From positions 2,980 through 66,979 of the forward strand of contig JAGBAW010000003.1 of assembly GCA_017938725.1 (NCBI GenBank): a stretch of 64,000 nucleotides of DNA, read 5' to 3'. Shown in pieces: positions 623 through 51,537 of this stretch; position 1 is the stretch's first letter, and each line of letters begins with the position of its first letter. The translations under genes were made by a program, and so were the position numbers. This DNA is from Bacilli bacterium. Lineage in GTDB: Bacteria; Bacillota_I; Bacilli_A; RF39; UBA660. Below the pieces are notes generated by a model, which was not told the origin of the DNA, did not search any database, and saw only the letters and a list, made by a program, of their open reading frames with translations.

Positions 623-1225
623 ATGAAAAAGATAATTATAGGTGTAATCTTAGGCGTTATTGCTATACTATCAGTTATATTTGTAATTGTTAGCAATAAT
701 GATAAAGATAAAGATACCTTAACAAAGGTAAAAGTTGCAGAAGTGGCACATACTATATTTTATGCACCACAATATGTTGCTTTAGAAAAGGGGTATTTTA
801 AAGATGAGGGTTTAGATATAGAACTTTTATTAACACCAGGTGCTGATAAAGTAACTAGTGCAGTTTTATCAAAGGATGTTGATATTGGTTTTTGTGGTAG
901 TGAAGCATCAATATATGTATATAACTCAGGTAATGAAGATTATGTAGTTAATTTTGCTGGTCTAACAAAAAGAGATGGAGCATTCTTGGTATCAAGAAAA
1001 AAAATAGATAATTTTAAATTAGAAGATTTAAAGGGTAAGTATGTAATAGGAGGAAGAAAGGGCGGTATGCCCGAAATGACTTTTGAATACACATTAAAAG
1101 AAAATGGTATCAATTTGGATGAATTAACAATTGATACTAGTGTTGATTTTGCATCAATGGGAGGTACATTTATAAGTGGAGTTGGAGATTTTGTAACTTT
1201 ATTTGAACTTAGTGTAAGAGAATGA
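623..1225 (+). pseudogene. ABC transporter substrate-binding protein, NitT/TauT (NMT1/THI5, ThiY-like) family: N-terminal ~200 aa, truncated by an inserted element
   Basis: GGGAGG RBS 6 nt upstream of ATG at 623. Signal/TM segment, then NMT1-like periplasmic-binding-protein sequence. The ORF ends ...FELSVRE-stop right at the insertion junction, and the remainder of the gene resumes in frame at 6300. Confidence 0.8.
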
Positions 1226-1254
1226 AGTCGCCAAGTGAAAAATTATATGTCTTT

Positions 1255-2964
1255 TTATAGACAGAAATAACAATTCACAAGGTATGCGACTTTATATCTT
1301 TTAGTTCCCTGTGTATCATATCCTCGAAAAAACTCATAACTACTTCTTAAAATTTGTTGTAGTTTTTTATTTTCATCATTTTCTTTATAAGATAAAAATA
1401 TATTTAACTCCATATTATTTTTATCATTACTTATTTTAGATACGACGATATGGTCAAGTAGTGAACTAATTATTTTAGTTATAGTAGATTTTAAATTAAC
1501 TTTTGAATTCAAGATATTCTCTAGCTCTTTAGTTTTATCAGTATTTCCTTTTATTTTTTTCTTATCTTGTTTTAATTGGTTTAATTCTTTAGTGAGTTCA
1601 TTTATTTTATCATTAAATGAATTATTTCTTTCATAAAATTCTTCATTAGATAAACCACCTTGAATGCTTAATTCTAATATCTTATCTTTCCTAGCATAAA
1701 TATTATTTATCTCTTTTTCTAAAGATTTAATTTCCTCATCAATACCAGTATCTATTTCTAAGTGTTTATAATAATTCATAAGAATATCAATAATACTCCC
1801 TGAATCTATTTGTAATTTAGATATTAGATCTTTAAAAATGGCATCTAATTCTGATTCTCTTATATTAGGTGAATCACAAGTGGTTTTACCTTTTTTTAAA
1901 TATTCTGAACAAACCCAAGTAATGTCTTTTTTATTTTTTCTAAACTCTCTTCTGTGGAAAACAGTACCATGCTCTCCACAATAAATTTTAGCACTATACA
2001 AGTATCTATTTTTATAAATACTTTTATCTTTTTTTCTCTCACTAAATGCTTTTTTTCTTGTTATTAAACGAGTGTTAGCTCTTTCCCACAGTTCTTCATC
2101 AACAATTGGTGGAATTCTAGATTTATCTTCATAGATAACCCAATCATCCTTTTCAAAATATTTTATCTTTTTATTCATATAGTCTACTATTTCTGATTTT
2201 TTAGCACAATAATATCCTTTATATTTAGGATTTTCAATCATTCGTGAAATTGTAGATATGCACCATTTTTTACCTTGACATGTTTTTAATCCTTCACTAT
2301 TTAATGACTTAGCAATTTTAGAAAGAGATAATTCTTCAACTACATAAAGTTCATAAATTCTTCTGACAACTTTAGCCTCATCATCAATGATATTTAATAC
2401 TCCAGTATCCTTATCTTTTTTATAACCATAGAGCATATCATTTCCAAGTATTTCCCCTCGTTCTATAGCACGATTCATACCGAATTTAACACGCTCTGAT
2501 AATCTTCTTATTTCATCTTGTGCCATAGAAGCCATTATTGTTAATCTTAATTCAGAATCAGGTAAGGCAGTATTAATATTATCATTTACAAATAAAACAG
2601 CTACTCCGAAAGACAAAAGTTCTCTTGTATATTTTATACTATCAAGAGTATTTCTTGAAAATCTAGAAATTTCTTTGGTAACAATTAAATCAAATTTACC
2701 ACTTCTAGCATCTTCAATCATCTTCATAAAGTTATCTCTTTTAATATCACTTGTACCAGTTATTCCATCATCTACATAACCTGATATATAAGTCCAATTT
2801 GGATTTCCTTTTATATATTGTTCAAAATGTTCCACTTGATTTTGAAGAGATTTCTTTTGCTCTAGATGATCTGTTGATACTCTTGCATAATCTGTTACTC
2901 TAAGTTTTATACTTGTAAGTGGCATTCCCATATTTAACTGCTTTCGAACAGTATATAAATCCAA
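1255..2964 (-). CDS. large serine recombinase (resolvase/invertase-type N-terminal catalytic domain + recombinase and zinc-ribbon/coiled-coil C-terminal region)
   Basis: N-terminal YARVSTDHLEQ (catalytic Ser) and resolvase-like motifs (GYVDDGITG, RFSRN). Length of 569 aa and a C-terminal Cys cluster are typical of large serine recombinases. Possible TTG start with an AAAGGAG RBS. Confidence 0.85.
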   Translation of the reverse strand: MDLYTVRKQLNMGMPLTSIKLRVTDYARVSTDHLEQKKSLQNQVEHFEQYIKGNPNWTYISGYVDDGITGTSDIKRDNFMKMIEDARSGKFDLIVTKEISRFSRNTLDSIKYTRELLSFGVAVLFVNDNINTALPDSELRLTIMASMAQDEIRRLSERVKFGMNRAIERGEILGNDMLYGYKKDKDTGVLNIIDDEAKVVRRIYELYVVEELSLSKIAKSLNSEGLKTCQGKKWCISTISRMIENPKYKGYYCAKKSEIVDYMNKKIKYFEKDDWVIYEDKSRIPPIVDEELWERANTRLITRKKAFSERKKDKSIYKNRYLYSAKIYCGEHGTVFHRREFRKNKKDITWVCSEYLKKGKTTCDSPNIRESELDAIFKDLISKLQIDSGSIIDILMNYYKHLEIDTGIDEEIKSLEKEINNIYARKDKILELSIQGGLSNEEFYERNNSFNDKINELTKELNQLKQDKKKIKGNTDKTKELENILNSKVNLKSTITKIISSLLDHIVVSKISNDKNNMELNIFLSYKENDENKKLQQILRSSYEFFRGYDTQGTKRYKVAYLVNCYFCL

Positions 2965-3004
2965 TTTTTCTTCTCCTTTCTACTGTCATTATAACATATT
3001 ATTG

Positions 3005-3202
3005 TTAGTAACAAGCATTAGCACCACTTACACTCACAATTTTTAATTCCTTTAAAATATTTTCTTCTGTATATTTAAACATCTTATAAGATATTTTATT
3101 TTCATCAAACAACTCTTTATTTAAGGAAAGAGCCACTTCTAAAAGTATTTCTCTATTTTTATATTTTACTTCTTTACTTCCCATAATATCGTTAAAATTC
3201 AT
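3005..3202 (-). CDS. hypothetical small protein
   Basis: 65-aa ORF inside the element. No motifs. Confidence 0.3.
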   Translation of the reverse strand: MNFNDIMGSKEVKYKNREILLEVALSLNKELFDENKISYKMFKYTEENILKELKIVSVSGANACY

Positions 3203-3268
3203 AACTCATCTCCTTTATTTAAAACTATGAGAAAAATTGTAAAATAATACTTTAAGAAAAAGCAGAAA

Positions 3269-3478
3269 CTATTTAGTATCTAGTTTCTGCTTAGTCTCTT
3301 TTACACGTTTAACCATTAATATGTTTTGAATTGTTTTAATTAGTTTTCTTATTTCATTATGAAGAAGATTATTGTTATCTTTAATCATTTGTATATCTCC
3401 TTTACTTAATATAATCTTTTTAGTTAACTGTGACTGCTCATATTGAATTCTGTTAACAACACTAATATAATCACTCAT
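3269..3478 (-). CDS. hypothetical small protein (possibly remnant of a longer, disrupted gene)
   Basis: 69-aa ORF. The frame stays open ~45 codons upstream of its ATG without a start, which suggests decay. Confidence 0.3.
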   Translation of the reverse strand: MSDYISVVNRIQYEQSQLTKKIILSKGDIQMIKDNNNLLHNEIRKLIKTIQNILMVKRVKETKQKLDTK

Positions 3479-3752
3479 TATTTTAGTTATTTCATTTTTA
3501 CATTCAATATCTTCTTTATATAAGGATTCATAAATACAAGCACTTCTAACATACGAAGCAAAATGTGGTCCAAATCCATACTCTATTGCTTTTTCTGTAA
3601 TTATTCTTATTTCTTAGTCATTTAACATAATATTAATTTTCTTTCTACATCATCTATATCCATCCATTTATTTTTCAGATTATCATCTCCATCTTATGAC
3701 ATATAGTATAATTTTAATCTATCAAGCATGGTGTTATCACACCCTTTTCTTG

Positions 3753-3770
3753 TTAGGGATGAATCCCTAA
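3753..3770. repeat. perfect 8-bp inverted repeat TTAGGGAT-ga-ATCCCTAA in a non-coding stretch of the element
   Basis: Seen directly in the sequence. It is not followed by a T-run. Confidence 0.4.
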
Positions 3771-4004
3771 GACCTATAGTCTCCGACAGTTTAGATATAT
3801 TTTACTCATATAATCACACTCCTTTCTTGTAAGATAATTAAAAAAGGGCACAAAAAAAGAGATAAAGTCTCTCAAAATTAGTCTTTCTTCTAATTACTCT
3901 ATATTATCATTTTAACACATTTTTTTAGGACATGCAACGGACATATTTTTAAAAATATACTCACTATTGTTATTTTATCTTTATAAATAAATAGAAAAAT
4001 CATT

Positions 4005-4553
4005 TTAATTTTTTTTGATTTCTTGCAAAGTTAACTGTTTATTTTTTTCTTTTCGCTTTTCATTTTTATATGCTTTATTTAAATTATCTAATAGTTTTAT
4101 CCATCCACTACCAATTACTTCTTCTGCAAAGGCAATGCCATCTGTGGAATAGTGAAGCATTGTTTGACCTAATAGTGAAATACTCATTTCGCTATGACCT
4201 TGTTGATGAGTAAGCTTACTAATTTCTTCCCAAGATTCACCATTAGCAATATGTTCCATTATTTCTCCAGCTTCTTCATAAGCATGTAATTCTGATTCTA
4301 TTGAATAATCATCAACTTCTCCAGCTAGATATATAAGTTTTTGTATTGTTTTTGTCCAATTAACCTTCTCTTCTTCTTTACAATAAACAGAATATTTTGA
4401 CATCTTTTGTATATAGTCATTAGCTATATAGCTTAAAAATTTTCCATCTTTAGTTATAAAGAGAAGTTTTGACATTTTCATATCTCTGACAGCATTTTCT
4501 GCTGTTACTTCAAACATTTTATCTACAAATTCTTTTGATTCTTCTTTTGACAT
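4005..4553 (-). CDS. hypothetical protein (182 aa), element cargo
   Basis: Compact ORF co-oriented with and immediately downstream of the RhuM-like gene. No motifs recognised. Confidence 0.5.
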   Translation of the reverse strand: MSKEESKEFVDKMFEVTAENAVRDMKMSKLLFITKDGKFLSYIANDYIQKMSKYSVYCKEEEKVNWTKTIQKLIYLAGEVDDYSIESELHAYEEAGEIMEHIANGESWEEISKLTHQQGHSEMSISLLGQTMLHYSTDGIAFAEEVIGSGWIKLLDNLNKAYKNEKRKEKNKQLTLQEIKKN

Positions 4554-4612
4554 CTAAAATCCCCCAGTCAATTGTTTTATATTGTATACTTTAAAATAAT
4601 TATTAGCAATAC

Positions 4613-5599
4613 TTATTTATCAATTTCTTCTATTTCTTTATTTAAGGCTTCTAGGTAATCTTGTTCAGCAGTAGTTAAATGTTCTTGCATATATTTATCA
4701 TATTCTTCATGTGCTTTTTTTAATGCTTGTTCATGAGATATTTTTCCACTACCTTTTAATATATCTTTTCTAGTCATTTTTAAAAATGAGTCTAATTCAT
4801 TCACCCAATCTTGCATTGTCATTGAATGTCTATCTAGTGCATTAATTTCAGCAACATCTAAATAAGCGGATACCATTCTATTTAAAGTATTAAGTTCCTC
4901 TTCAGTTAAATAGTTTTTAGCAATTTCAGTTTCACTTTTTGTTGGATAATTACCTTTAAAATTAGTAAGTCCTAAATTTTCTTTATTAGAATCAATCCTA
5001 TAAAATATTACCTCAGCAGCAGTATTGCCATGGGTAGCGTAGTGCATTTTATTTTGAACTGTTTTAAAGAAATCTATTGATAATTTATCTTTAGGATTAT
5101 AGTCAATTGAAGTTGCATAAATATCTAATACTTTTCTCCAGAATATTTTCTCTGAAGATCTAATATCACGAATTCTGGCAAGTAATTCTTCAAAGTATGG
5201 ACTTTCACCGTTATTTTTTAATCTTTCATCATTTAAAGCAAAACCTTTAATCATATATTCTTTTAAAACTTTGGTTGCCCATATTCTAAATTCGGTTGCT
5301 TTTTTAGAATTAATTCTATATCCAACAGCTATAATAGAATCCAAATTATAGTGTTCTATATTTCTTTTAACTTTTCTTTTGCCTTCGTTTTGAACTGTCA
5401 AGAAATTCTTGACAGTTAAATTTTTATCAAGTTCTTCTTCTTTAAATATATTATTTAGATGATAACTAATATTTTGTTTAGTAGTATCATAAAGATTAGC
5501 CATTACATCTTGGCTCATCCAGATATCTTCATTTTGTATATTAACATCAACTTTTACATTACCATCTTTTGATACATATATAAGCATATTGTTTTTCAT
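4613..5599 (-). CDS. RhuM-family (virulence-protein RhuM-like) cytoplasmic protein
   Basis: Sequence pattern typical of the RhuM family (N-terminal ...NIQNEDIWMSQ..MA.LYD......I..HL.NIF.E.EL...., RINSKKATEFRIWATKVLKEY, EELLARIRDIR). Confidence 0.75.
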   Translation of the reverse strand: MKNNMLIYVSKDGNVKVDVNIQNEDIWMSQDVMANLYDTTKQNISYHLNNIFKEEELDKNLTVKNFLTVQNEGKRKVKRNIEHYNLDSIIAVGYRINSKKATEFRIWATKVLKEYMIKGFALNDERLKNNGESPYFEELLARIRDIRSSEKIFWRKVLDIYATSIDYNPKDKLSIDFFKTVQNKMHYATHGNTAAEVIFYRIDSNKENLGLTNFKGNYPTKSETEIAKNYLTEEELNTLNRMVSAYLDVAEINALDRHSMTMQDWVNELDSFLKMTRKDILKGSGKISHEQALKKAHEEYDKYMQEHLTTAEQDYLEALNKEIEEIDK

Positions 5600-5618
5600 A
5601 AGCTAATCTCCTTTCTAT

Positions 5619-6203
5619 TTATTTATTTTTATTTTTATTTCCAACTTCTTTTGCGTTTTCTAAAATATCATTAATGAATTCATTCATTGTACAACCATAT
5701 ATAGGTTTGTCATATTCATAAATATGTAAACAATTTAATATTTCCTCATTTATAGGATTTCTTTGTTTATTGTGTTCAATATGTTTTTCTTTTTGATAAT
5801 TAATAGCATCTTGATAAGTTTCAAATTCATATATTCCTCTATTATTGAAATCAGAGTGTTCAAAATAATAATACTTTCCATTATTTTCAAATACTAAATA
5901 TGTATGAGTTAAATAGGAATTATCATAAGGAAGTTCAAACCATATAAAAAATGTTTTAAAATTATAATTATGAGTTTTGAACCAATCTCTTTCTAATTCA
6001 ACCTGATCCCAGCAATGTCCATATCCTACTTTGATTAATCTTTCTGGACTAGATAAATGCCATTTTGTTTGACAGCCCTCTTGAAATTCTCGGTTATTCC
6101 ATGGTACATATTCTTTTTCACTATCATCTACAAATCCATACTTTATATTATCATCCATATATTTTAATAATTGTTCTGGTGTTTTAACATCATTATATTT
6201 CAT
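5619..6203 (-). CDS. hypothetical protein (194 aa) with conserved His/Cys pair (GYGHCWDQ), element cargo
   Basis: ORF with ATG and short spacing to the RhuM gene. A possible Cys/His hydrolase, but the fold is not assignable by eye. Confidence 0.5.
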   Translation of the reverse strand: MKYNDVKTPEQLLKYMDDNIKYGFVDDSEKEYVPWNNREFQEGCQTKWHLSSPERLIKVGYGHCWDQVELERDWFKTHNYNFKTFFIWFELPYDNSYLTHTYLVFENNGKYYYFEHSDFNNRGIYEFETYQDAINYQKEKHIEHNKQRNPINEEILNCLHIYEYDKPIYGCTMNEFINDILENAKEVGNKNKNK

Positions 6204-6299
6204 TTGCCCACCTCTATATAAATTATACTAAAAAAGTTCTAGTTTTCCTAGAACTTAGCAGTACTTTATATGGAAATTTATTTTGAACAATATTAGTGA

Positions 6300-6737
6300 T
6301 TTCTTATTCTTGCACTAAGAGAACCAAGTGCAACACAAGTTGAAAATGAGGGCTATGGTTATGTAGTCGCATACATAGGTGAGTATGGTGGATCAGTTCC
6401 ATATACAGCATATAATGCTAGAAAAAGTTATATAGATAAAAATCCAGATACTATTCAAAAATTTACAAACGCAATTAATAAAGGATTAGATTTTGTATGG
6501 AATAATGACGAAGAGGCGATTGCTAAAGTAATAGTTAATCAATTTCCTGATTTAACAATTAATGAACTTGCTACTATGATTAAAAGATATAAGGATAATG
6601 ATGCATGGATGAAGGATACATATTTTACTGAAGAATCATTTAATCATCTTCAAGATATTATGATAGAAGCTAAAGAACTTGAAAATAGGGTTCCGTATGA
6701 AGATTTAGTAAATACTACTTTCTCTAAATCAAAATAA
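6300..6737 (+). pseudogene. ABC transporter substrate-binding protein (NitT/TauT family): C-terminal ~145 aa, separated from its 5' half by the inserted element
   Basis: Open frame with no start codon (FLILALREPSATQVENEGYGYVVAYIGEYGG...). The frame is continuous with 623..1225 once the element is removed. It ends 1 bp before the ATPase gene. Confidence 0.8.
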
Positions 6738-6738
6738 T

Positions 6739-7488
6739 ATGAATAAAGTATTAGAAATAAAAAATCTCTATAAAACATATTATACAAAAGACTCAGAGAT
6801 TGAGGCATTAAAAGACATCAATTTAAAAATAGAAGAGAAAGATTTTGTAGGAGTAGTAGGTCCCTCTGGTTGTGGTAAATCAACTTTGCTATCAATAATT
6901 GGGGGACTTGAAAATCAAACTTCTGGAGAAATAAAGAAAGATGATAATTTAAAAATAGGGTATATGCTTCAGGACGATTGCTTGTTTCCATGGCTTACTA
7001 TTTATGAAAATTGTCTAATTGGACTTAAAATAACAAAAACATGTACTAAAGAAAATACGGATAATGTAAAAAAATTACTTGAAACTTATGGATTAAAAGA
7101 TTTTATAAATAATTATCCAAAAGATTTATCAGGGGGTATGAGACAAAGAGTTGCACTTATAAGAACTCTTGCCTTAAAACCAGATTTACTTTTACTTGAT
7201 GAACCATTTTCAGCACTTGATTATCAAACAAGGCTTTCTGTATCAAATGATGTTTTGAATATAATAAAAAAAGAAAATAAGACATTAATAATTGTTACAC
7301 ATGATATATCAGAGGCGATAAGTATGTGTAATAAAATAATAGTTTTATCAAAAAGACCATCTACAATAAAGAAGGTTTATAATATTAATTATAATTTTGA
7401 TAGGGAAAATCCTGTAAAAAGTAGAAGTAGCAAACAATTTATGGAATATTATGAGAAAATTTGGGAAGATCTTAATAATGAAAAGTAA
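6739..7488 (+). CDS. ABC transporter ATP-binding protein (NitT/TauT family)
   Basis: Walker A GPSGCGKST, signature LSGGMRQR, Walker B LLLLDEP, H-loop THD. Confidence 0.9.
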   Translation: MNKVLEIKNLYKTYYTKDSEIEALKDINLKIEEKDFVGVVGPSGCGKSTLLSIIGGLENQTSGEIKKDDNLKIGYMLQDDCLFPWLTIYENCLIGLKITKTCTKENTDNVKKLLETYGLKDFINNYPKDLSGGMRQRVALIRTLALKPDLLLLDEPFSALDYQTRLSVSNDVLNIIKKENKTLIIVTHDISEAISMCNKIIVLSKRPSTIKKVYNINYNFDRENPVKSRSSKQFMEYYEKIWEDLNNEK

Positions 7489-8263
7489 TGGGTATAAAAA
7501 ATATCTAAAAAGAATAAAAAGGGATAATATTCTTGTATTTGCTACTCAAATTATTATAGTTATATCATTTATTGTTATATGGCAAATTTTAGCTGACAAA
7601 CGAATAATAGACACATTTTTAACATCAAGCCCAGCTAAAGTATATTCAACTATTATTGATTTAATCAAAGCAGGTAACTTTTGGAATCATATATTTACTA
7701 CAGTGTATGAAATTATTATAAGCTTTATATTAGGTAATTTTATAGGTATATTTGTAGCTAGTATATTATGGTTTAATAAATTTTTGGCAAGAGTATTTGA
7801 ACCATTTTTAACAATACTTAATAGTTTACCGAAAGTAGCACTTGGACCACTTATAATAATATGGGCTGGTGCGAATATTAAATCTATTATATTAATGTCA
7901 CTTTTAATATCTGCGATTATTAGTATTATTAATATATATAATAGTTTTAAAAGTACAGATATAAATAAAATCAAGATAATTAAATCAATGGGTGGAAATA
8001 AGTTTCAAATTTATAAAAATGTAATTTTAAGAGATAATTATATAAAGATAATAGAATCTTTTAAAATAAATGTAAGTATGTGTTTTGTTGGTGTAATAAT
8101 GGGTGAGTTATTAGTATCAAAAGAAGGAATAGGTTATTTAATAATGTATGGATCACAAGTATTTAATATGAATTTTGTAATTACAGGTGTAGTACTTTTA
8201 GTAATTCTAACAGTTATATTATATTATGTGATTAACTATATAGAAAAGGTCTCTAGAAAATAG
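7478..8263 (+). CDS. ABC transporter permease (NitT/TauT family)
   Basis: Multi-TM hydrophobic protein overlapping the ATPase stop. Completes the SBP-ATPase-permease operon. Confidence 0.85.
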   Translation: MKSNGYKKYLKRIKRDNILVFATQIIIVISFIVIWQILADKRIIDTFLTSSPAKVYSTIIDLIKAGNFWNHIFTTVYEIIISFILGNFIGIFVASILWFNKFLARVFEPFLTILNSLPKVALGPLIIIWAGANIKSIILMSLLISAIISIINIYNSFKSTDINKIKIIKSMGGNKFQIYKNVILRDNYIKIIESFKINVSMCFVGVIMGELLVSKEGIGYLIMYGSQVFNMNFVITGVVLLVILTVILYYVINYIEKVSRK

Positions 8264-8335
8264 AGATCTTTATATATATAAATTTAAAAATAACATTTTT
8301 TTATTATACTCATATACTAAGGATGGGAGGTATAT

Positions 8336-9256
8336 ATGAATTTTGACTATAAGTTTGGGAATCAGTATTATAATTATTTTTATCCAAAAGGTATTCAAAG
8401 TACTGAATATCTAATTATGGCTCCGGAGCAATCACAGAATAGTCAGCCAGGTATGGAATATTTAATGAATCCAAGACCAATATTTGATAATCCTAGTTAT
8501 AAAGGAAGTGGTAAATTAAAAGGAAAAGTTGCAATTATAACAGGGGGAGATAGTGGACTTGGAAGGGCATGTGCAGTTGCCTTTACTAAAGAGGGTGCAA
8601 AAGTGGTAATACCTTATTATAATGAACATGAAGATGCAAGTGAGACCAAAAATTACATAGAAAGATTAGGTGGAGAATGTTTATTAATATCAGGGGATAT
8701 TACAGATAAAAGCTTTTGTAAATTAATTGTTAAAAAAACATTGCAAAGATTTGGGAAAATAGATATACTTGTAAATAATGCAGGTGTTCAATACGAGCAG
8801 GACAGTTTAGAATGTATTAGTGATGAACAATTTGACTGGACAATGAAAGTGAATGTATATGGAATGTTTTATTTAACTAAAGAGGTTTTACCTTATTTAA
8901 AAGAAGGTTCATCTATAATAAACTTAACTTCAGTTACTACTTTTTATGGAGATCCACAATTAATTGATTATGTTACAACTAAGGGCGCTATTGTAGGATT
9001 TACAAGAGCACTTGCAAGAAATTTAGCACTAAAAAAAATAAGAGTTAATGCAATTGCACCAGGATTTTTTTGGACACCACTTCAGCCAGCCTGCTGGGTA
9101 AAAGAAAAAATTCCCTCATTAGGTGCCGATGCTGCAATGAGAAGAGGTGCTATGCCATATGAACTTGCCCCTACATTTGTTTTTTTAGCCTCAGATGATT
9201 CAAGCTATATGACAGGGCAAGTTATACATAATAATGGTGGTCAAGTAATGGGGTAA
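8336..9256 (+). CDS. SDR-family oxidoreductase (YhdF/YghA-like)
   Basis: GKVAIITGGDSGLGRA Rossmann motif, NNAG, catalytic YxxxK. GGAGG RBS. Confidence 0.85.
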   Translation: MNFDYKFGNQYYNYFYPKGIQSTEYLIMAPEQSQNSQPGMEYLMNPRPIFDNPSYKGSGKLKGKVAIITGGDSGLGRACAVAFTKEGAKVVIPYYNEHEDASETKNYIERLGGECLLISGDITDKSFCKLIVKKTLQRFGKIDILVNNAGVQYEQDSLECISDEQFDWTMKVNVYGMFYLTKEVLPYLKEGSSIINLTSVTTFYGDPQLIDYVTTKGAIVGFTRALARNLALKKIRVNAIAPGFFWTPLQPACWVKEKIPSLGADAAMRRGAMPYELAPTFVFLASDDSSYMTGQVIHNNGGQVMG

Positions 9257-9735
9257 AGGAATCTTAATACAGGTTTCTTTTTTTGCAATTAAAAGTCTCC
9301 TTTGAAATATTTCATAGTGAAAGTAGTTGGCAATCTGTTTATTCAGTTTTTGGGACAATTATATCTTCGACAAGTGTAAGTAAATTTACTAAACATTTTA
9401 CATATTTAAAAAGATTAATATGTAATTTTAGCTATTTTATAATATTTATATTACTATTGATGTTGATAGATTATATAGGAGTTATCAATATTAATCAAGC
9501 ACCTAGATTTTTATTAGTTAAAGTATCAGGAGATGATACTATTTACTATGATACACCATTTATGATGTTATTAGGTGTAATGTAAATAATGATAAGGAGG
9601 TTTTTACAGTAATAAGAAATCAAAAATATGATAGAGATAATATAGATGAGCTTTGTAAATAATAAAGTATTAGAATATGAAAATAGTAACGTACTTGATA
9701 ATATTATTTATAATTATTTAAATATTTGTCAGAAG

Positions 9736-9764
9736 TTGACATTAATTATTAATTGAAGTATAAT
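9736..9764 (+). promoter_or_regulatory. near-consensus sigma-70-type promoter (TTGACA-17 nt-TATAAT) for the RiPP precursor gene
   Basis: TTGACA at 9736-9741, TATAAT at 9759-9764, 17-nt spacer. AAAGGAGG RBS at 9771-9778, ATG at 9786. Confidence 0.6.
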
Positions 9765-9785
9765 TTTTTTAAAGGAGGAACTATA

Positions 9786-10010
9786 ATGGATAAAAAAATT
9801 ATTGAATTTAAAAATAATAAAAACAAAATATTTGTTGATGGTAATTTAGCATTAAAATCACATAAAGAAGATTTTAATAAAAAGAATCCAGATGAAGAGA
9901 AATATACTGCACCAAAAGTAAAGAAAATGGTTTTTGAAAAAACTAATTCAAAAATTGTTATGGGATGTTGGCAACAAAGTTATACATCAAATGGTGGAGA
10001 CGGTTGTTAA
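9786..10010 (+). CDS. putative RiPP precursor peptide (74 aa; charged leader, C-terminal core ...KIVMGCWQQSYTSNGGDGC)
   Basis: Strong promoter and RBS. Lys/Glu/Asp-rich leader-like region with a short Cys/Trp/Tyr/Gly-rich C-terminus. Lies immediately upstream of an RRE-radical SAM-SPASM-type enzyme. Confidence 0.6.
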   Translation: MDKKIIEFKNNKNKIFVDGNLALKSHKEDFNKKNPDEEKYTAPKVKKMVFEKTNSKIVMGCWQQSYTSNGGDGC

Positions 10011-10016
10011 ATTAAT

Positions 10017-10055
10017 AAGCTTTTATGAATTGCATTTCATAAAAGCTTTATTATT
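10017..10055 (+). terminator. 13-bp perfect hairpin (AAGCTTTTATGAA-ttgcat-TTCATAAAAGCTT) followed by TATTATT: putative attenuator between precursor and maturase
   Basis: Seen directly. Placement after a precursor gene is typical for setting precursor-to-enzyme stoichiometry in RiPP operons. Confidence 0.55.
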
Positions 10056-10067
10056 AGAAAGGAAATT

Positions 10068-11318
10068 ATGAAAGATTTTGTAATTAGGCAAGGAGAGGAA
10101 ATAACCTTTGCGATTAATATAAAAGAATCAGAAACAATATATGAATTTGATGGTGTTTCTAAGATTATTTTCGATAATATGGATAAAGATTGGAAATATA
10201 TATCAAATATATTAAAAGATAAGTATAACAATGTATCCGAAAAAGAAATGGAAGATGATTATATTAATTTTATTAATGAATTAAAACTATTAAGAATAAC
10301 AAGTGATAATATTGAAAACATAATTATTAATATTGAAAATTGTGATATAAAAAATGCTTCTGTTGAAATTATAAATAGTTGTCCATTTAAATGTGATCAT
10401 TGTTATGTATCAAATAAAAAACAACAAATTAATATAAATGATTATAGAAAAATAATAGATCAATTATCAAGTTTAAATTGTGTGGAACTATTGATAACCG
10501 GTGGAGAACCATTTCTTCATCCAAATTTTATTGAAATGTATTTATATGCAAAGAGTAAAGGAATATTAGTAAGCATCAATTCTAACATTTTTTTATTAAA
10601 TGATAAAATATTAAATGTTATATGTGAGTATAAGCCGAAAGTAATAGAAGTAAGTTTATATGGATTTGATAATGATAGTTATTTTAAATTTACTCATGTA
10701 AAAAATGCATATTCAATAATAAATAAAAATATTACTAGTTTAATTAATAATAATATAAATATAAGTTTAAAGTCTGTCTTGACTAAAAAAAGCATGGATT
10801 ACATTTATATATTAAAAAAATATGCTGACAATTATAAAATACCATTTAGATATGATTATATAATTTTTCCTAATCAAGATGGATTAAAAGATAATCCTGA
10901 AAGATGTTCTCCAGAAGAAATTGTTAGTGTATTGAAAAAAGATGAAGACACTGTAAACTTTTTTAGAAGTAAGGTAAAAAATATTCCCACAAATATAGAA
11001 GATAATTGTTATATATTTCAATGTAGTATTGGGAAAGATAGAATATTTATTAGTTCAAATTTAGATATAAGACCATGTCTTGTTGTACCTTTCAAATATA
11101 ATTTGTCAAAATATACCATTAAAGAAGCATACTATAAATTTAAGAATATTTCTAAAATATATAAAAATAATAAAGATAATAAGTGTATAAATTGTAATAA
11201 AAAATCAATATGTAGATATTGCCCTGGCAAATTTTATATGGAAACTGGAAGTTTTGAAACTATACCGGATTTTTATTGTGACTTAGCAAATAAAATAATA
11301 AAGGAGTTTAGTTTGTGA
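10068..11318 (+). CDS. radical SAM peptide-maturase-like protein (N-terminal PqqD-like RRE region, Cx3Cx2C core, Cys-rich SPASM/twitch-type C-terminal domain)
   Basis: CPFKCDHC motif at ~aa 105-112. The N-terminal ~95 aa resemble a PqqD-like peptide-binding domain. C-terminal cysteines: CYIFQC...C...CINCNKKSICRYCPG. Confidence 0.9.
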   Translation: MKDFVIRQGEEITFAINIKESETIYEFDGVSKIIFDNMDKDWKYISNILKDKYNNVSEKEMEDDYINFINELKLLRITSDNIENIIINIENCDIKNASVEIINSCPFKCDHCYVSNKKQQININDYRKIIDQLSSLNCVELLITGGEPFLHPNFIEMYLYAKSKGILVSINSNIFLLNDKILNVICEYKPKVIEVSLYGFDNDSYFKFTHVKNAYSIINKNITSLINNNINISLKSVLTKKSMDYIYILKKYADNYKIPFRYDYIIFPNQDGLKDNPERCSPEEIVSVLKKDEDTVNFFRSKVKNIPTNIEDNCYIFQCSIGKDRIFISSNLDIRPCLVVPFKYNLSKYTIKEAYYKFKNISKIYKNNKDNKCINCNKKSICRYCPGKFYMETGSFETIPDFYCDLANKIIKEFSL

Positions 11319-11319
11319 T

Positions 11320-11802
11320 ATGATAAAAGTATATGACGGAAATAAAATTAATGATACTATATTAGATCAAATGTATAAAATTTTAATTGAAAATTTATTT
11401 ATCACGTATCCCTCTTTTTTAGATAATAGAGATAAACATGATAATGAAAAAAATTATAACATATGGACTAATATGATAAAAACAACAGAAAATTATAATG
11501 TAATTATATATAAGGAAAATAATAAAGTTTTTGGATTTTTAAATTATTGTATTATAGATTCGAATTTATGGATTTCAGAAGTTCAAATAAAAGATGAATA
11601 TAAAAACAAAAGAATATTAAAAAAATTAATAAATAAATTTGTTTTAATAGAAAAAAATAGAAAATATTCTACTGTTACAATACATATAAACGATGAAAAT
11701 ATATTATCTAAAACAGTTTTTGAACATATTGGGTTCAAATCTGTCGGGGACACATTATATAAAATAAATATAAAAGATTTAATTGATTGGAGTATTTGTT
11801 AA
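11320..11802 (+). CDS. GNAT-fold acetyltransferase-like protein (tentative)
   Basis: Translationally coupled to the rSAM gene (TGA-a-ATG). Central and C-terminal pattern is reminiscent of GNAT motif A/B (KNKRILKKLINKF...VFEHIGFK), but the signature is weak. Confidence 0.5.
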   Translation: MIKVYDGNKINDTILDQMYKILIENLFITYPSFLDNRDKHDNEKNYNIWTNMIKTTENYNVIIYKENNKVFGFLNYCIIDSNLWISEVQIKDEYKNKRILKKLINKFVLIEKNRKYSTVTIHINDENILSKTVFEHIGFKSVGDTLYKINIKDLIDWSIC

Positions 11803-11840
11803 TTATAAATATATACAATTAAATAATATTTTAGGACATG

Positions 11841-11960
11841 AAATGGATAAAAATTCAGTATGTAAGGATTTTAGATTAATTAAATTAATAAATGGAAGTG
11901 ATAATTCTTATGAAGATTTAATTTATAAGTATAATATATCCCTTTGTGTTCCCAAAAAAT
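11841..11960 (+). pseudogene. N-terminal fragment of a sigma-70-family (ECF/TcdR-like region 2) factor
   Basis: 39-aa ORF MDKNSVCKDFRLIKLINGSDNSYEDLIYKYNISLCVPKK-stop resembles the start of sigma region 2. It is followed by further short broken ORFs up to ~12100. Confidence 0.4.
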
Positions 11961-12186
11961 AAAAATGATAAATTTAAGTATTCAATTAAGAGAAATGAGC
12001 ATAGAAAAATTAAATTTAGATATAGATAAACTAAGCAAGCTTCCTATATTAGAAATAGAAAGATAACAAGTTAAAAAATTACATATTTGAAGTAATTTTT
12101 TTTTGCCAAATAATTAAAAAATAATGCAAAGAATATACCATAAAAAGACAATATATGATAAAATATTTGTCAGAAAGGTATTAATT

Positions 12187-51219: not shown

Positions 51220-51339
51220 GTTGCCTCCTATAACATGATTATATCATAATTTTAATATAATAAATAAAATATCTTTTTAAATATTGATAAAAATAAAAAA
51301 TATGGTATAATAAATTTGTCTAAAGCAATTATAAAGGAG

Positions 51340-51537
51340 TAGTAATATAATTAATATTTTAAAGAGAGTTAGCGTTTGGTGCAAGCTAATAATGTTGTTA
51401 TATGAATTCACCTTTTAGCAGTATAATGAAAGTTATAACGTTTATCTAGCGTTAATAGATTAAAGAGCATAGAAAGTCTATGAAGTAAGGTGGTACCGCT
51501 CCTAATATAGGAGTCCTTACATCTAGACTTTTTTATT
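51340..51537 (+). promoter_or_regulatory. T-box riboswitch leader (Phe) upstream of HAD-pheS-pheT
   Basis: T-box sequence AAGGTGGTACCGCTCC, overlapping terminator GTAAGG...CCTTAC plus T-run. Confidence 0.6.

What the first reader, a model, noticed from the sequence alone, without database searches (positions are those of the whole stretch)
1215..6323. 5.1-kb serine-recombinase element inserted inside an ABC substrate-binding-protein gene, with exact 8-bp flanking repeats
TAAGAGAA is present at 1215-1222 and 6316-6323. The upstream gene half (623..1225, ends ...LFELSVRE-stop) and the downstream half (6300..6737, begins ...LREPSATQVENEGYGYVV) share the R-E codons of the repeat. Removing 1223..6323 gives a single uninterrupted NitT/TauT-family substrate-binding-protein ORF, directly followed by its ATPase and permease genes.

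The element has a 569-aa large serine recombinase 30 bp inside its left end, reading outward. That architecture is reminiscent of clostridial Tn4451/TnpX- or TndX-type elements and of developmentally excised elements such as skin (SpoIVCA), although no resistance or mobilisation genes are present.

Extra shared short motifs near both ends may be recombinase half-sites: GAACTTAG at 1204 and 6251, and CCAAGTG at 1231 and 6324.
Basis: seen in the sequence. Interest (0 to 1): 0.8.

Follow-up and report, generated by a model that had tools for sequence, protein, structure and literature searches.

The report
Serine-integrase element splitting a transporter gene

Summary
The split gene and the inserted element are real. 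The proposed ends are not. Intact homologues and empty-site DNA read ...TTATTTGAACCAAGTGC... (F-E-P-S), so the element is 5,116 bp long and is bounded by a 2-bp core, GA, at 1205-1206 and 6321-6322. His rejoined ORF carries five residues (LSVRE-derived) that no intact homologue has.

The rebuilt attP is a canonical serine-integrase site: 23-nt imperfect inverted arms (17/23 match) around GA. Its distal GACTTC motif lies 5 bp closer to the core in attB.

About 50 species-representative gut MAGs carry a related integrase (51-91% identity). In 50 of 51 loci it sits at this same codon. Cargo varies from 0.2 to more than 9 kb.

Integrase and host divergence are uncorrelated, which indicates horizontal spread. 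Empty and occupied alleles coexist within species.

A 40-65-aa helical-hairpin ORF always precedes the integrase and is a candidate directionality factor.

The window's copy keeps its recombination module but has lost about 500 bp and carries a nonsense mutation in a NikA-like gene. No excised circle was found.

Verdict: a new member of a known kind, of moderate interest.

The parts
623..1206 (+). Host SBP gene, N-terminal part (codons 1-194 plus the first two bases, GA, of codon 195)
   Evidence: Pfam NMT1 positions 5-145. Aligns to intact homologues up to ...DFVTLFE. Empty-site DNA.
1177..1204 (.). attB left arm (B) retained in attL. It holds a GAyTTT motif at -18..-13 from the core.
   Evidence: Consensus of 27 loci. 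The motif lies 5 bp nearer the core than GACTTC of the P arm. This fits the zinc-ribbon-domain motif shift of Rutherford et al. 2013.
1205..1206 (.). Crossover dinucleotide GA of attL
   Evidence: It is the only sequence shared by all attL and attR junctions of the family, and it lies at the centre of the attP palindrome.
1207..1234 (.). P' arm of attP (element left end).
   Evidence: The reverse complement, GACTTCATTCTCTTACACTAAGT, matches the P arm at 17/23 positions. Only 5 of 200,000 random pairs from the window do as well. Conserved in relatives.
1255..2964 (-). Large serine recombinase, 569 aa, reading outward towards attL
   Evidence: Pfam Resolvase, Recombinase and Zn_ribbon_recom. PHROG 95 integrase, E 2e-116. 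Motifs YARVS(30)T and SRFSR present. Full-length matches at 51-91% identity in about 50 genomes.
3005..3202 (-). o65: small conserved ORF directly upstream of the integrase. Candidate directionality factor or regulator.
   Evidence: A homologous 40-65-aa ORF precedes the integrase in every subfamily inspected. Core nearly invariant in 35 sequences. AlphaFold model is a two-helix hairpin, pLDDT 83. No Pfam, PHROG, PADLOC, NCBIfam or PDB match.
3269..3646 (-). Remnant of a 137-aa NikA/MobC-like ribbon-helix-helix gene. It lacks its start and has an in-frame TAA at 3614-3616. The 69-aa ORF 3269..3478 is its tail.
   Evidence: Translation. The intact L005 homologue hits Pfam NikA-like at E 4e-4, below the curated cut-off. 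About 500 bp (L005 8817-9318) are missing at window 3634-3646.
3647..4004 (.). Non-coding stretch conserved at 82-88% in many relatives. It holds 21-nt direct repeats at 3736-3756 and 3813-3833.
   Evidence: blastn against loci. Repeats. No Rfam match.
4005..4553 (-). Cargo ORF of 182 aa, function unknown
   Evidence: No hit in Pfam, PHROGs, PADLOC or NCBIfam. Found in only one other locus, L007.
4613..5599 (-). Cargo: RhuM-family protein, 328 aa (candidate anti-phage defence or toxin)
   Evidence: Pfam PF13310, E 9e-110. PADLOC candidate system PDC-S05, E 6e-143. Present in 15 of 32 related elements.
5619..6203 (-). Cargo: transglutaminase-like cysteine-peptidase-fold protein, 194 aa
   Evidence: Pfam DUF553 at threshold. 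AlphaFold model pLDDT 94.5. Best PDB matches are the CPR-C4 cysteine protease and vasohibins. C64 is nearly invariant; H100 and E115 are invariant.
6234..6256 (-). Terminator-like hairpin followed by a T run, 65 nt inside attR.
   Evidence: It occupies the same position in 12 of 32 relatives, with compensatory stem changes.
6293..6320 (.). P arm of attP (element right end). GATTTC here versus the family consensus GACTTC.
6321..6322 (.). Crossover dinucleotide GA of attR
6321..6737 (+). Host SBP gene, C-terminal part (E-P-S-A-T-Q... to the stop). The B' arm is 6323-6350.
   Evidence: Pfam NMT1 positions 150-216. Alignment to intact homologues.
6739..8263 (+). Intact ATPase (6739..7488) and permease (7451..8263) genes of the same operon (context)
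   Evidence: Same lengths as in the uninterrupted locus L001.

Best explanation
Window 1207..6322 (5,116 bp between two GA cores) is a site-specific integrative element. It belongs to a large family that lives in uncultured, low-G+C, small-genome gut Bacilli.

Integration (mechanism inferred from the family):
- The element's large serine recombinase binds an attP site of about 50 bp on the circular element. In the window this reads TTAGTGATTTCTTATTCTTGCACTAAGA-GA-ACTTAGTGTAAGAGAATGAAGTCGCCAA.
- It also binds attB inside codons 186-204 of the NitT/TauT-family substrate-binding-protein gene: TGGAGTTGGAGATTTTGTAACTTTATTT-GA-ACCAAGTGCAACACAAGTTGAAAATGAG.
- It cuts both sites at the central GA, rotates the half-sites and religates.

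Consequences:
- Integration splits the gene after the second base of codon 195.
- The N-terminal part gains five element-encoded codons and a stop.
- The C-terminal part loses its start codon and membrane anchor.
- The transporter is therefore most likely switched off (inferred).

Content:
- The core module is the integrase plus a small helical-hairpin protein (o65) just upstream.
- Everything else is exchangeable cargo. Here it is a RhuM-family defence candidate, a transglutaminase-like cysteine peptidase and a 182-aa unknown.

Spread and state of this copy:
- The family moves horizontally between species and is polymorphic within species.
- The window's copy keeps the integrase, o65 and both att arms.
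- It has lost about 500 bp and carries a nonsense codon in a NikA-like accessory gene.
- It is fixed in every sampled contig of its own strain, so it may be on its way to immobility.
- The route of cell-to-cell transfer is unknown.
For: Boundaries:
- Intact homologues lack ELSVR.
- Empty-site DNA is available.
- 50 of 51 related loci have a junction at the same codon, with only GA in common.
- SBPs rebuilt by joining at GA in L008, L010 and L012 exist residue for residue as intact natural proteins.
- Empty-site contig L102 and occupied locus L010 have flanks 98.8-99.3% identical.

Integrase:
- Three LSR domains, the catalytic serine motif and full length.

att architecture:
- The arms match at 17/23 positions. 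Only 5 of 200,000 random pairs do as well.
- Family consensus of the four half-sites, with a 5-bp motif shift (model from PMC3783163).

Mobility:
- Integrase and host identities are uncorrelated (Mantel r 0.14, p 0.16).
- Integrases 95-99% identical sit in hosts whose SBPs are 46-68% identical.
- For such pairs, integrase dS is about 0.2 while host dS exceeds 1.

Cargo and decay:
- Variable cargo and a conserved o65.
- Decay of the window's copy.
Against: - No excised (attP) junction was found in IMG/VR, in the metagenome contig collection or among the fetched loci.
- All six P-arm hits in metagenome contigs are integrated copies. With only six copies present, this absence is weak evidence.
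- The window strain's own restored SBP is absent from the 15-billion-protein collection, and all 13 contigs read that carry its o65 hold integrated or partial copies. Activity of this particular copy is therefore unproven.
- The window's P arm reads GATTTC where the family consensus is GACTTC.
- The role of o65 rests only on position and conservation.
- Inactivation of the transporter is inferred, not measured.
Confidence: 0.85

Rival explanations
1. Regulated gene integrity. The element, and the other integrase elements in the same operon, act as a reversible switch. Conditional excision rebuilds the transporter genes, as with comK, sigK, spsM and gerE, but in a bacterium with no known terminal differentiation.
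For: - The family meets the operational criterion of Mageeney et al. 2020: a tight integrase clade disrupts the same Pfam domain at the same position in many independent elements, and many uninterrupted alleles exist.
- In 30 of 31 loci that hold both halves, the halves contain no stop codon.
- L045 and L046 share a colinear 11.6-kb locus with two nested elements at 75.6% nucleotide identity.
- In that pair, integrase dS (0.63) equals host dS (0.62-0.63), and the split fragments have dN/dS 0.07-0.09.
- A neutral simulation leaves 546 codons stop-free in only 2e-4 of runs at 5% substitutions per lineage.
- L048 and L054 show the same pattern (dS 0.16-0.43, dN/dS 0.04-0.06).
- o65 is strongly conserved.
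Against: - No attP junction was seen.
- Horizontal spread and within-species polymorphism alone explain young, undecayed halves.
- One near-identical strain (L091) has a TGA nonsense codon in the N-terminal half and a second insertion in the ATPase gene.
- Cargo is as variable as in selfish elements.
- Only two unsaturated pairs support co-divergence.
- No regulatory signal was identified.
Confidence: 0.15
2. In this strain the element is an immobile relic and the operon is simply dying. The insertion is a fixed pseudogenising lesion with no further dynamics.
For: - An accessory gene is deleted and another carries a nonsense codon.
- No empty allele of this exact strain is on record.
- Every contig read that carries the strain's o65 holds an integrated or partial copy.
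- L091 has a nonsense mutation in SBPn, and L091 and L093 have a second element in the ATPase gene.
- The window's P arm deviates from the consensus.
Against: - The integrase ORF is full length and 91% identical to its relatives. o65 and both att arms are intact.
- The SBP halves, ATPase and permease in the window are all open and of normal length.
- The strain sample is small.
Confidence: 0.3
3. The element spans 1223..6323 and is flanked by an 8-bp direct repeat, TAAGAGAA, that marks the target or crossover, as in a transposon with a target-site duplication.
For: The 8-mers are at the stated positions, and deleting 1223..6323 keeps the frame open.
Against: - The rejoined protein has five residues absent from all aligned intact homologues.
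- Empty-site DNA lacks the 16 bases CTTAGTGTAAGAGAAC....
- Only 8 of 24 relatives have the repeat on both sides.
- The 8-mer occurs 12 times on the plus strand of the window.
Confidence: 0.02
4. The element is a degraded prophage or a phage satellite.
For: The integrase matches the PHROG integrase family. RhuM-like genes occur in prophages.
Against: - No capsid, terminase, lysis, replication or primase gene is present in the window or in 32 related elements of 2.8-17 kb.
- No close relative exists in IMG/VR (best 35% identity) or in GenBank phages (best 40%, on what looks like a host DNA fragment).
Confidence: 0.05

Closest known systems
gin element of Bacillus cereus (integrase GirC plus 6.5-kDa directionality factor GirX) inserted in gerE (PMC5595907)
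   Same: It is a small, non-phage, non-conjugative element that splits a protein-coding gene. A large serine recombinase rejoins the gene precisely. A very small accessory protein is encoded in the element. Its route of transfer is unknown.
   Different: gin sits in a sporulation gene and excises in the mother cell, and it carries three recombinases. Here the target is a transporter gene in bacteria with no known sporulation programme, there is one recombinase, excision is not shown, and o65 has no detectable similarity to any known directionality factor.
Integrative mobilizable elements of streptococci with site-specific serine integrases (Guedon et al. 2017, PMC5704250)
   Same: They use site-specific serine integrases, and integration disrupts a dispensable conserved gene. 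They are small and carry variable cargo. Some carry only an oriT and a relaxosome accessory factor.
   Different: No relaxase or coupling protein was found here. The only mobilisation-like gene is a sub-threshold NikA-like match in relatives, and it is a pseudogene in the window.
Tn5397 (TndX) and Tn4451/Tn4453 (TnpX) of clostridia
   Same: They use a large serine recombinase with a central GA dinucleotide at the crossover (for TndX: PMC4430133; for TnpX: from my own knowledge). The closest solved catalytic domain is a C. difficile 'conjugative transposon recombinase', 3G13.
   Different: The match to TnpX covers the N-terminal domain only, at E 9e-8. There are no conjugation, mobilisation (MobV-type) or resistance genes. 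Targeting is strict to one codon. According to the literature, TndX and TnpX need no directionality factor.
skin (SpoIVCA), SPbeta (SprA/SprB) and cyanobacterial fdxN (XisF) intervening elements
   Same: A gene is interrupted by an element with a large serine recombinase, and precise excision restores the reading frame.
   Different: Those are tied to terminal differentiation. The XisF NCBIfam score is 98 bits against a cut-off of 375. SprA aligns only at E 1e-14.
SCCmec cassettes (CcrAB, CcrC)
   Same: A serine-recombinase core module carries highly variable cargo, inserts at one conserved chromosomal site and forms tandem or composite arrays.
   Different: Ccr NCBIfam scores are 63-121 bits against cut-offs of 700-900. 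SCC inserts at the 3' end of rlmH without inactivating it.

Membership tests
Large serine recombinase (serine integrase) | N-terminal resolvase-type catalytic domain with the serine nucleophile and conserved arginines | tested here: met
   PF00239, E 9e-32. YARVS30T and S100-R-F-S-R104 are present. Roughly 46% identity by eye over 155 aa to 3G13.
Large serine recombinase (serine integrase) | Recombinase domain plus zinc-ribbon domain C-terminal to the catalytic domain | tested here: met
   PF07508, E 1e-24, and PF13408, E 1.5e-11. The coiled-coil insert is inferred from sequence only.
Large serine recombinase (serine integrase) | Short (about 40-50 bp) imperfectly palindromic attP and attB sites with a 2-bp asymmetric core | tested here: met
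   GA core. Arms match at 17/23 positions, empirical p about 2.5e-5. Family consensus.
Large serine recombinase (serine integrase) | Distal (zinc-ribbon-domain) motif 5 bp closer to the core in attB than in attP | tested here: met
   GACTTC lies at -23..-18 in P and P'. GAyTTT lies at -18..-13 in B. The B' arm shows no clear motif. Model from PMC3783163.
Large serine recombinase (serine integrase) | Catalyses attP x attB integration; excision needs a directionality factor | not testable with these tools
   Needs an in vitro or in vivo assay. o65 is only a candidate.
Tn4451/Tn4453 (TnpX) and Tn5397 (TndX) elements | Recombinase orthologous to TnpX or TndX | tested here: not met
   TnpX (2MHC) matches the N-terminal domain only, at E 8.7e-8. 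TndX itself was not compared.
Tn4451/Tn4453 (TnpX) and Tn5397 (TndX) elements | Mobilisation or conjugation genes and a resistance determinant | tested here: not met
   None in the window and none among 30 cargo proteins of relatives.
Tn4451/Tn4453 (TnpX) and Tn5397 (TndX) elements | GA dinucleotide at the crossover | tested here: met
   Literature.
SCC cassette recombinases (CcrA, CcrB, CcrC) | Score above the NCBIfam equivalog cut-off | tested here: not met
   121, 112 and 63 bits against cut-offs of 900, 900 and 700.
XisF (fdxN element) | Score above the NCBIfam equivalog cut-off | tested here: not met
   97.6 bits against 375.
Integrative mobilizable element (IME) | Own integration/excision module | tested here: met
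   Integrase and att sites.
Integrative mobilizable element (IME) | oriT with a relaxase or a relaxosome accessory factor | tested here: inconclusive
   The 137-aa protein of relatives hits NikA-like at E 4e-4, 20.8 bits against a cut-off of 27. It is a pseudogene in the window. No relaxase was found, and oriT was not identifiable.
Regulated gene integrity (criterion of Mageeney et al. 2020) | A tight integrase clade with several independent elements disrupting the same Pfam domain at the same position, and uninterrupted alleles also present | tested here: met
   Criterion quoted.
Regulated gene integrity (criterion of Mageeney et al. 2020) | Excision actually restores gene function under some condition | not testable with these tools
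   No attP junction found. Indirect support from dN/dS.
Prophage or phage satellite | Virion, packaging, lysis or replication genes, or relatives on phage genomes | tested here: not met

The most novel reading that the evidence does not exclude
This ABC-transporter operon is a shared landing pad for at least five integrase lineages, each with its own codon-precise site:
- SBP at about residues 95, 145 and 195
- the ATPase signature motif at about residue 139
- the permease at about residue 214

In some lineages (L045/L046, L048/L054) the split state looks vertically inherited, yet the fragments stay under strong purifying selection.

The most novel reading is therefore that these elements form a multi-element, reversible genetic switch on a nutrient transporter in reduced-genome, non-sporulating gut bacteria. 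That would be regulated gene integrity outside any terminal-differentiation programme.
Probability: 0.15. Interest if true: 0.75.

Novelty: new member of a known kind. Interest (0 to 1): 0.42.

Why it matters
Mechanistically this is a conventional serine-integrase element, so the single finding is not surprising. The value lies in three by-products.

1. It yields a precisely defined new integrase with attP, attB, a GA core and natural variation from about 50 species. This is the kind of data used to mine integrases as genome-engineering tools, and here it comes from uncultured hosts for which no genetic tools exist.

2. It gives a conserved two-gene core: the integrase plus a 40-65-aa hairpin protein. 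That pairing offers a directly testable candidate for a new type of recombination directionality factor.

3. One small operon in genomes of about 1.3 Mb is hit at codon precision by at least five integrase lineages, and its fragments remain under purifying selection. This makes the question 'safe harbour or reversible switch?' testable with read-level metagenomics.

Tried and rejected
- **Excised circle.** An attP pattern found nothing in IMG/VR or in metagenome contigs. A P-arm-only pattern found six hits, all attR. A loose P-arm regular expression over all loci found 49 attR sites and 13 chance hits, with no attP.
- **Phage or plasmid origin.** IMG/VR gave at best 35% identity, GenBank phages at best 40% and plasmids at best 35%. 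The best 'phage' record, MT837325.1, looks like a high-G+C host DNA fragment and was dropped.
- **o65 function.** There is no sequence match to PDB. The fold search of the hairpin model gave nothing below E 0.5. Known directionality factors share no common fold, so this says nothing either way.
- **Substrate of the transporter.** I first suspected a thiY-like HMP transporter. No TPP riboswitch or any other Rfam family lies upstream, and matches to SsuA, ThiY and THI5 are only distant. The substrate is left open.
- **dN/dS across all pairs.** Most host pairs are saturated (dS above 0.6 with NG86 in this AT-rich DNA), and their omega values are unreliable. Only L019/L020, L048/L054, L036/L037 and L045/L046 were used.
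- **An apparent stop in the L045 permease fragment.** It lies in the overlap with the ATPase 3' end, upstream of the likely start, and is not a real internal stop.
- **Literature.** No paper links RF39 with serine recombinases. NMT1 and transporter genes are not mentioned in the main text of the regulated-gene-integrity survey; its Table 2 body was not readable.

Full report
**1. Checking the observation**

The word is common in this 25.5% G+C window: there are 12 copies on the plus strand.

The split gene is real. ORF 623..1225 matches Pfam NMT1 positions 5-145, and the frame ending at 6737 matches positions 150-216. An ABC ATPase gene (6739..7488) and a permease gene (7451..8263) follow.

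The only large ORF at the left end is a 569-aa protein at 1255..2964 on the minus strand. It has Resolvase, Recombinase and Zn_ribbon_recom domains and matches the PHROG integrase family at E 2e-116.

**2.

Joining 1222 to 6324 does give an open frame of 337 aa. A search with this protein returned thousands of intact homologues of 329-334 aa, up to 92% identical. Seven of them were aligned.

Contigs that encode the closest intact homologue have the same gene neighbourhood: tsaE-tsaB-rimI-tsaD, a pilin-like gene, then SBP-ATPase-permease. At the site they read GTTACACTATTTGAACCAAGTGCAACAC.

In the window, host sequence therefore runs to ...TTATTTGA (1206) and resumes at GAACCAAGTG (6321). The element measures 5,116 bp between the two cores.

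**3. A large family at the same codon**

A scan of one genome per species found 48 loci with an integrase 51-91% identical to the window's. All are metagenome-assembled genomes from mouse, human (Hadza), rabbit, goat and other guts. They are labelled uncultured Bacilli, Mollicutes or Tenericutes. One is a closed 1.31-Mb chromosome, OZ006981.1.

In 50 of 51 loci examined, at least one junction lies at codon 195 of the homologous SBP gene. The exception is a contig that ends inside the integrase gene. The host SBPs are only 43-85% identical to the window's.

Aligning the junctions shows two patterns:
- attL is ...TTYGA followed by variable bases.
- attR is ...CAYTAAGWGA followed by RCC.

GA is the only sequence common to all half-sites. 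I take GA to be the crossover dinucleotide.

As an independent check, I joined the halves of ten related loci at GA. Three of the resulting proteins (L008, L010, L012) exist residue for residue as intact proteins in the 15-billion-protein collection. One of them appears in 2,868 index blocks.

**4. Architecture of the att sites**

The reconstructed attP has the following arms:
- P arm: GATTTCTTATTCTTGCACTAAGA
- P' arm, reverse complement: GACTTCATTCTCTTACACTAAGT

These match at 17 of 23 positions around GA. Only 5 of 200,000 random pairs from the window do as well.

Consensus half-sites from loci whose integrase is at least 80% identical are:
- P: TTAG.GACTTCTTATtCTTGCACTAAGA
- P' (reverse complement): TTGGtGACTTCATTcTCTTaCACTaaGT
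- B: tGGaa..GG.GAcTTTGTaAc.tTATTT
- B' (reverse complement): ...tGCAtTaGGT

The distal GACTTC lies at -23..-18 in both attP arms. GAyTTT lies at -18..-13 in the B arm, which is 5 bp closer to the core. This is the shift of the zinc-ribbon-domain motif described for the Listeria integrase and other LSRs (PMC3783163). The proximal GCAYTARG motif is shared by P, P' and B'.

These are canonical features of a serine-integrase site. A GA core is also reported for TndX (PMC4430133).

**5.

GAACTTAG at 6251 is one side of a hairpin, AAGTTCTAGGAAAACTAGAACTT, followed by a T run on the minus strand. In 12 of 32 relatives a hairpin sits at the same distance, 61-71 nt inside attR. Its stem sequences differ but remain complementary, for example AAAGTTGAG/CTCAACTTT and AAAGATGGC/GCTGTCTTT.

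In the circular form this hairpin would lie just downstream of the outward-reading integrase gene, so I infer that it is the integrase terminator.

TAAGAGAA is present on both sides in only 8 of 24 relatives.

**6. Content of the element**

All genes lie on the minus strand, opposite to the host operon.

- *Integrase.* It has the motifs YARVS(30)T and SRFSR. Its closest solved relative is the catalytic domain 3G13, a 'putative conjugative transposon recombinase' (E 3e-38). Next comes SPbeta SprA over the full length (E 1e-14). It falls far below the NCBIfam cut-offs for CcrA, CcrB, CcrC and XisF.
- *o65 (3005..3202).* It has no match in any library. A homologous ORF of 40-65 aa with the core ...LALxLNKELFDENKISYKMFKYTEENILKEL... 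sits directly upstream of the integrase in every subfamily inspected. This includes elements in which only about 200 bp separate attR from the integrase. The model is a two-helix hairpin with pLDDT 83 and has no significant structural neighbour. Small directionality factors are known: GirX is 6.5 kDa, and such factors share no common fold. I therefore regard o65 as a candidate directionality factor or regulator. That is inference.
- *o69 (3269..3478).* This is only the tail of a 137-aa gene that is intact in relatives. The intact form gives a weak NikA-like match at E 4e-4. In the window the gene lacks its start and has an in-frame TAA at 3614-3616. About 500 bp present in L005 (8817-9318) are missing. 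That stretch covers most of a 173-aa gene with weak HTH matches.
- *Cargo.* There is a RhuM-family protein (Pfam E 9e-110; PADLOC candidate PDC-S05). RhuM has been proposed as a toxin domain in defence loci (PMC3710099). There is also a 194-aa protein whose confident model (pLDDT 94.5) resembles the CPR-C4 cysteine protease and the vasohibins. Its Cys64 is nearly invariant, and His100 and Glu115 are invariant. The 182-aa ORF has no matches.
- *Cargo in relatives.* Thirty-two related elements range from 2.8 to 17 kb. Their cargo includes a KAP NTPase, an OLD-type ATPase-TOPRIM protein, hydrolases, an SDR, nucleotide-metabolism enzymes, ABC exporters, an MMPL protein and large glycan-binding proteins.
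- *What was not found.* No phage-structural, replication, relaxase or conjugation gene was found.

**7. Mobility**

Integrase identity and host SBP identity are uncorrelated over 23 taxa (Mantel r 0.14, p 0.16). Integrases 95-99% identical occur in hosts whose SBPs are 46-68% identical. For such pairs, integrase dS is about 0.2 while host dS exceeds 1. This shows recent horizontal spread.

Empty and occupied alleles coexist within species. L102 (empty) and L010 (occupied) have flanks 98.8-99.3% identical, and the two alignments overlap by 10 bp at the junction.

No excised circle was seen. The collections hold few copies, so this is weak evidence.

**8. State of the window's copy**

The window is the same sequence as MAG contig JAGAPS010000035.1, with one mismatch in 8,091 bp. 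The strain's restored SBP is not on record; the closest intact allele is about 93% identical.

A near-identical contig, L091, differs at 4 positions in 7,153 bp. One of these is a TTA-to-TGA nonsense change at window position 783. L091 and L093 also carry a second element immediately after window position 7153, inside the ATPase signature motif, which the window lacks.

In this lineage the operon may therefore be decaying.

**9. The wider pattern**

Related loci show at least four other integrase lineages, 22-42% identical to this one. Each has its own site in the same operon:
- SBP at about residue 95
- SBP at about residue 145
- ATPase at about residue 139
- permease at about residue 214

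In 30 of 31 loci that hold both halves, the SBP halves contain no stop codon.

Two unsaturated species pairs look like vertical co-inheritance of the split state.
- *L045/L046.* They are colinear over 11.6 kb at 75.6% identity, including two nested elements. Integrase dS is 0.63 and host dS is 0.62-0.63. The split fragments have dN/dS 0.07-0.09.
- *L048/L054.* Integrase dS is 0.19, host dS is 0.16-0.43, and the SBP has dN/dS 0.04-0.06.

Under neutrality, 546 codons stay stop-free in only 2e-4 of simulations at 5% substitutions per lineage.

Two readings remain open. Either the fragments are still exposed to selection, through excision or through exchange with empty alleles, or related elements were gained separately in each lineage. 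This is the basis for the 'regulated gene integrity' rival. The family meets the operational criterion of Mageeney et al. 2020, but regulation itself is untested.

**10. Comparison and verdict**

The element works like the small gene-intervening and integrative elements that are driven by large serine recombinases:
- gin/GirC-GirX
- streptococcal serine-integrase mobilizable elements that disrupt dispensable genes
- TndX-type elements with a GA core
- SCC-like cassettes with variable cargo

It is not a member of the TnpX, Ccr or XisF families by sequence, and it is not a prophage. I found no description of this family in the literature.

It is a new member of a known kind.

Noticed in passing
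Related loci L004-L054 (for example L020 = OZ006981.1 560059-581765; L016, L019, L025, L026, L034, L037, L045-L048): The same SBP-ATPase-permease operon is cut at other codon-precise sites by at least four further integrase lineages, 22-42% identical to the window's. The sites are SBP at about residues 95 and 145, ATPase at about residue 139 (inside LSGGMRQRV|A) and permease at about residue 214. The closed 1.31-Mb genome has the operon cut in three places.
   Followed up: partly
L091 and L093 (same strain as the window), just after window 7153: These contigs are 99.94-100% identical to the window over 7,153 bp. They then diverge into ...CAAAGAGTTG|TATGAAGTTAGTATAGACACAAGTG..., which is the end of an ATPase-targeting element like those in L004 and L038. 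The window and L092 have the ATPase intact, so this second element is polymorphic between near-identical strains.
   Followed up: partly
window 783 (in L091): L091 has T783G, turning TTA into TGA in the N-terminal SBP half. It also has a second substitution at 804. Two of its four differences from the window thus lie in the 585-bp gene fragment.
   Followed up: yes
window 8272-12106: This 3.8-kb insertion, relative to the uninterrupted locus L001, lies just after the permease gene. It carries a 306-aa SDR (8336..9256) that is 84-86% identical to SDR cargo genes inside integrase elements of L035, L037, L038 and L049. It also carries an 85-aa Cys-rich peptide ORF, a 416-aa protein that by eye looks like a radical-SAM/SPASM enzyme (10068..11318; not scanned against any library) and a 160-aa protein that looks GNAT-like (also not scanned). 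The group resembles a RiPP cluster. No integrase is present.
   Followed up: partly
L015, L031, L035, L037, L038, L048, L049, L051, L054: In these loci 0.9-8 kb lie between the integrase 3' end and the SBP N-terminal half, and attL carries a different P' arm (for example GGATAGTGCAAGGATAATGACTC). They look like composite or tandem arrays of elements at the same site. L038 holds extra integrase-less copies of the RhuM and peptidase-fold genes.
   Followed up: partly
L034 13144-13734: The SBP N-terminal half lies in the opposite orientation to that expected relative to the integrase. This suggests an inversion between integrase sites.
   Followed up: no
window 6298-6303: The window's P arm reads GATTTC where at least 80% of relatives have GACTTC, the presumed zinc-ribbon-domain contact. 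This might weaken binding at attR.
   Followed up: no
window 3736-3756 and 3813-3833: Two 21-nt direct repeats, ATCACAC(C/T)C(T/C)TTTCTTGT(T/A)AG, lie 77 nt apart in a non-coding stretch that is 82-88% conserved across many related elements. They could be a regulatory site or an origin of transfer. No Rfam match.
   Followed up: no
window 51319-51521 (+): T-box leader (Rfam RF00230, 119 bits). Unrelated to the finding.
   Followed up: no
L029 and L033, attL: In these two elements the P' arm begins ACCTAATGC, identical to the host B' arm. attP and attB therefore share about 11 bp, and the truncated SBP keeps E-P-N-A before its stop.
   Followed up: no
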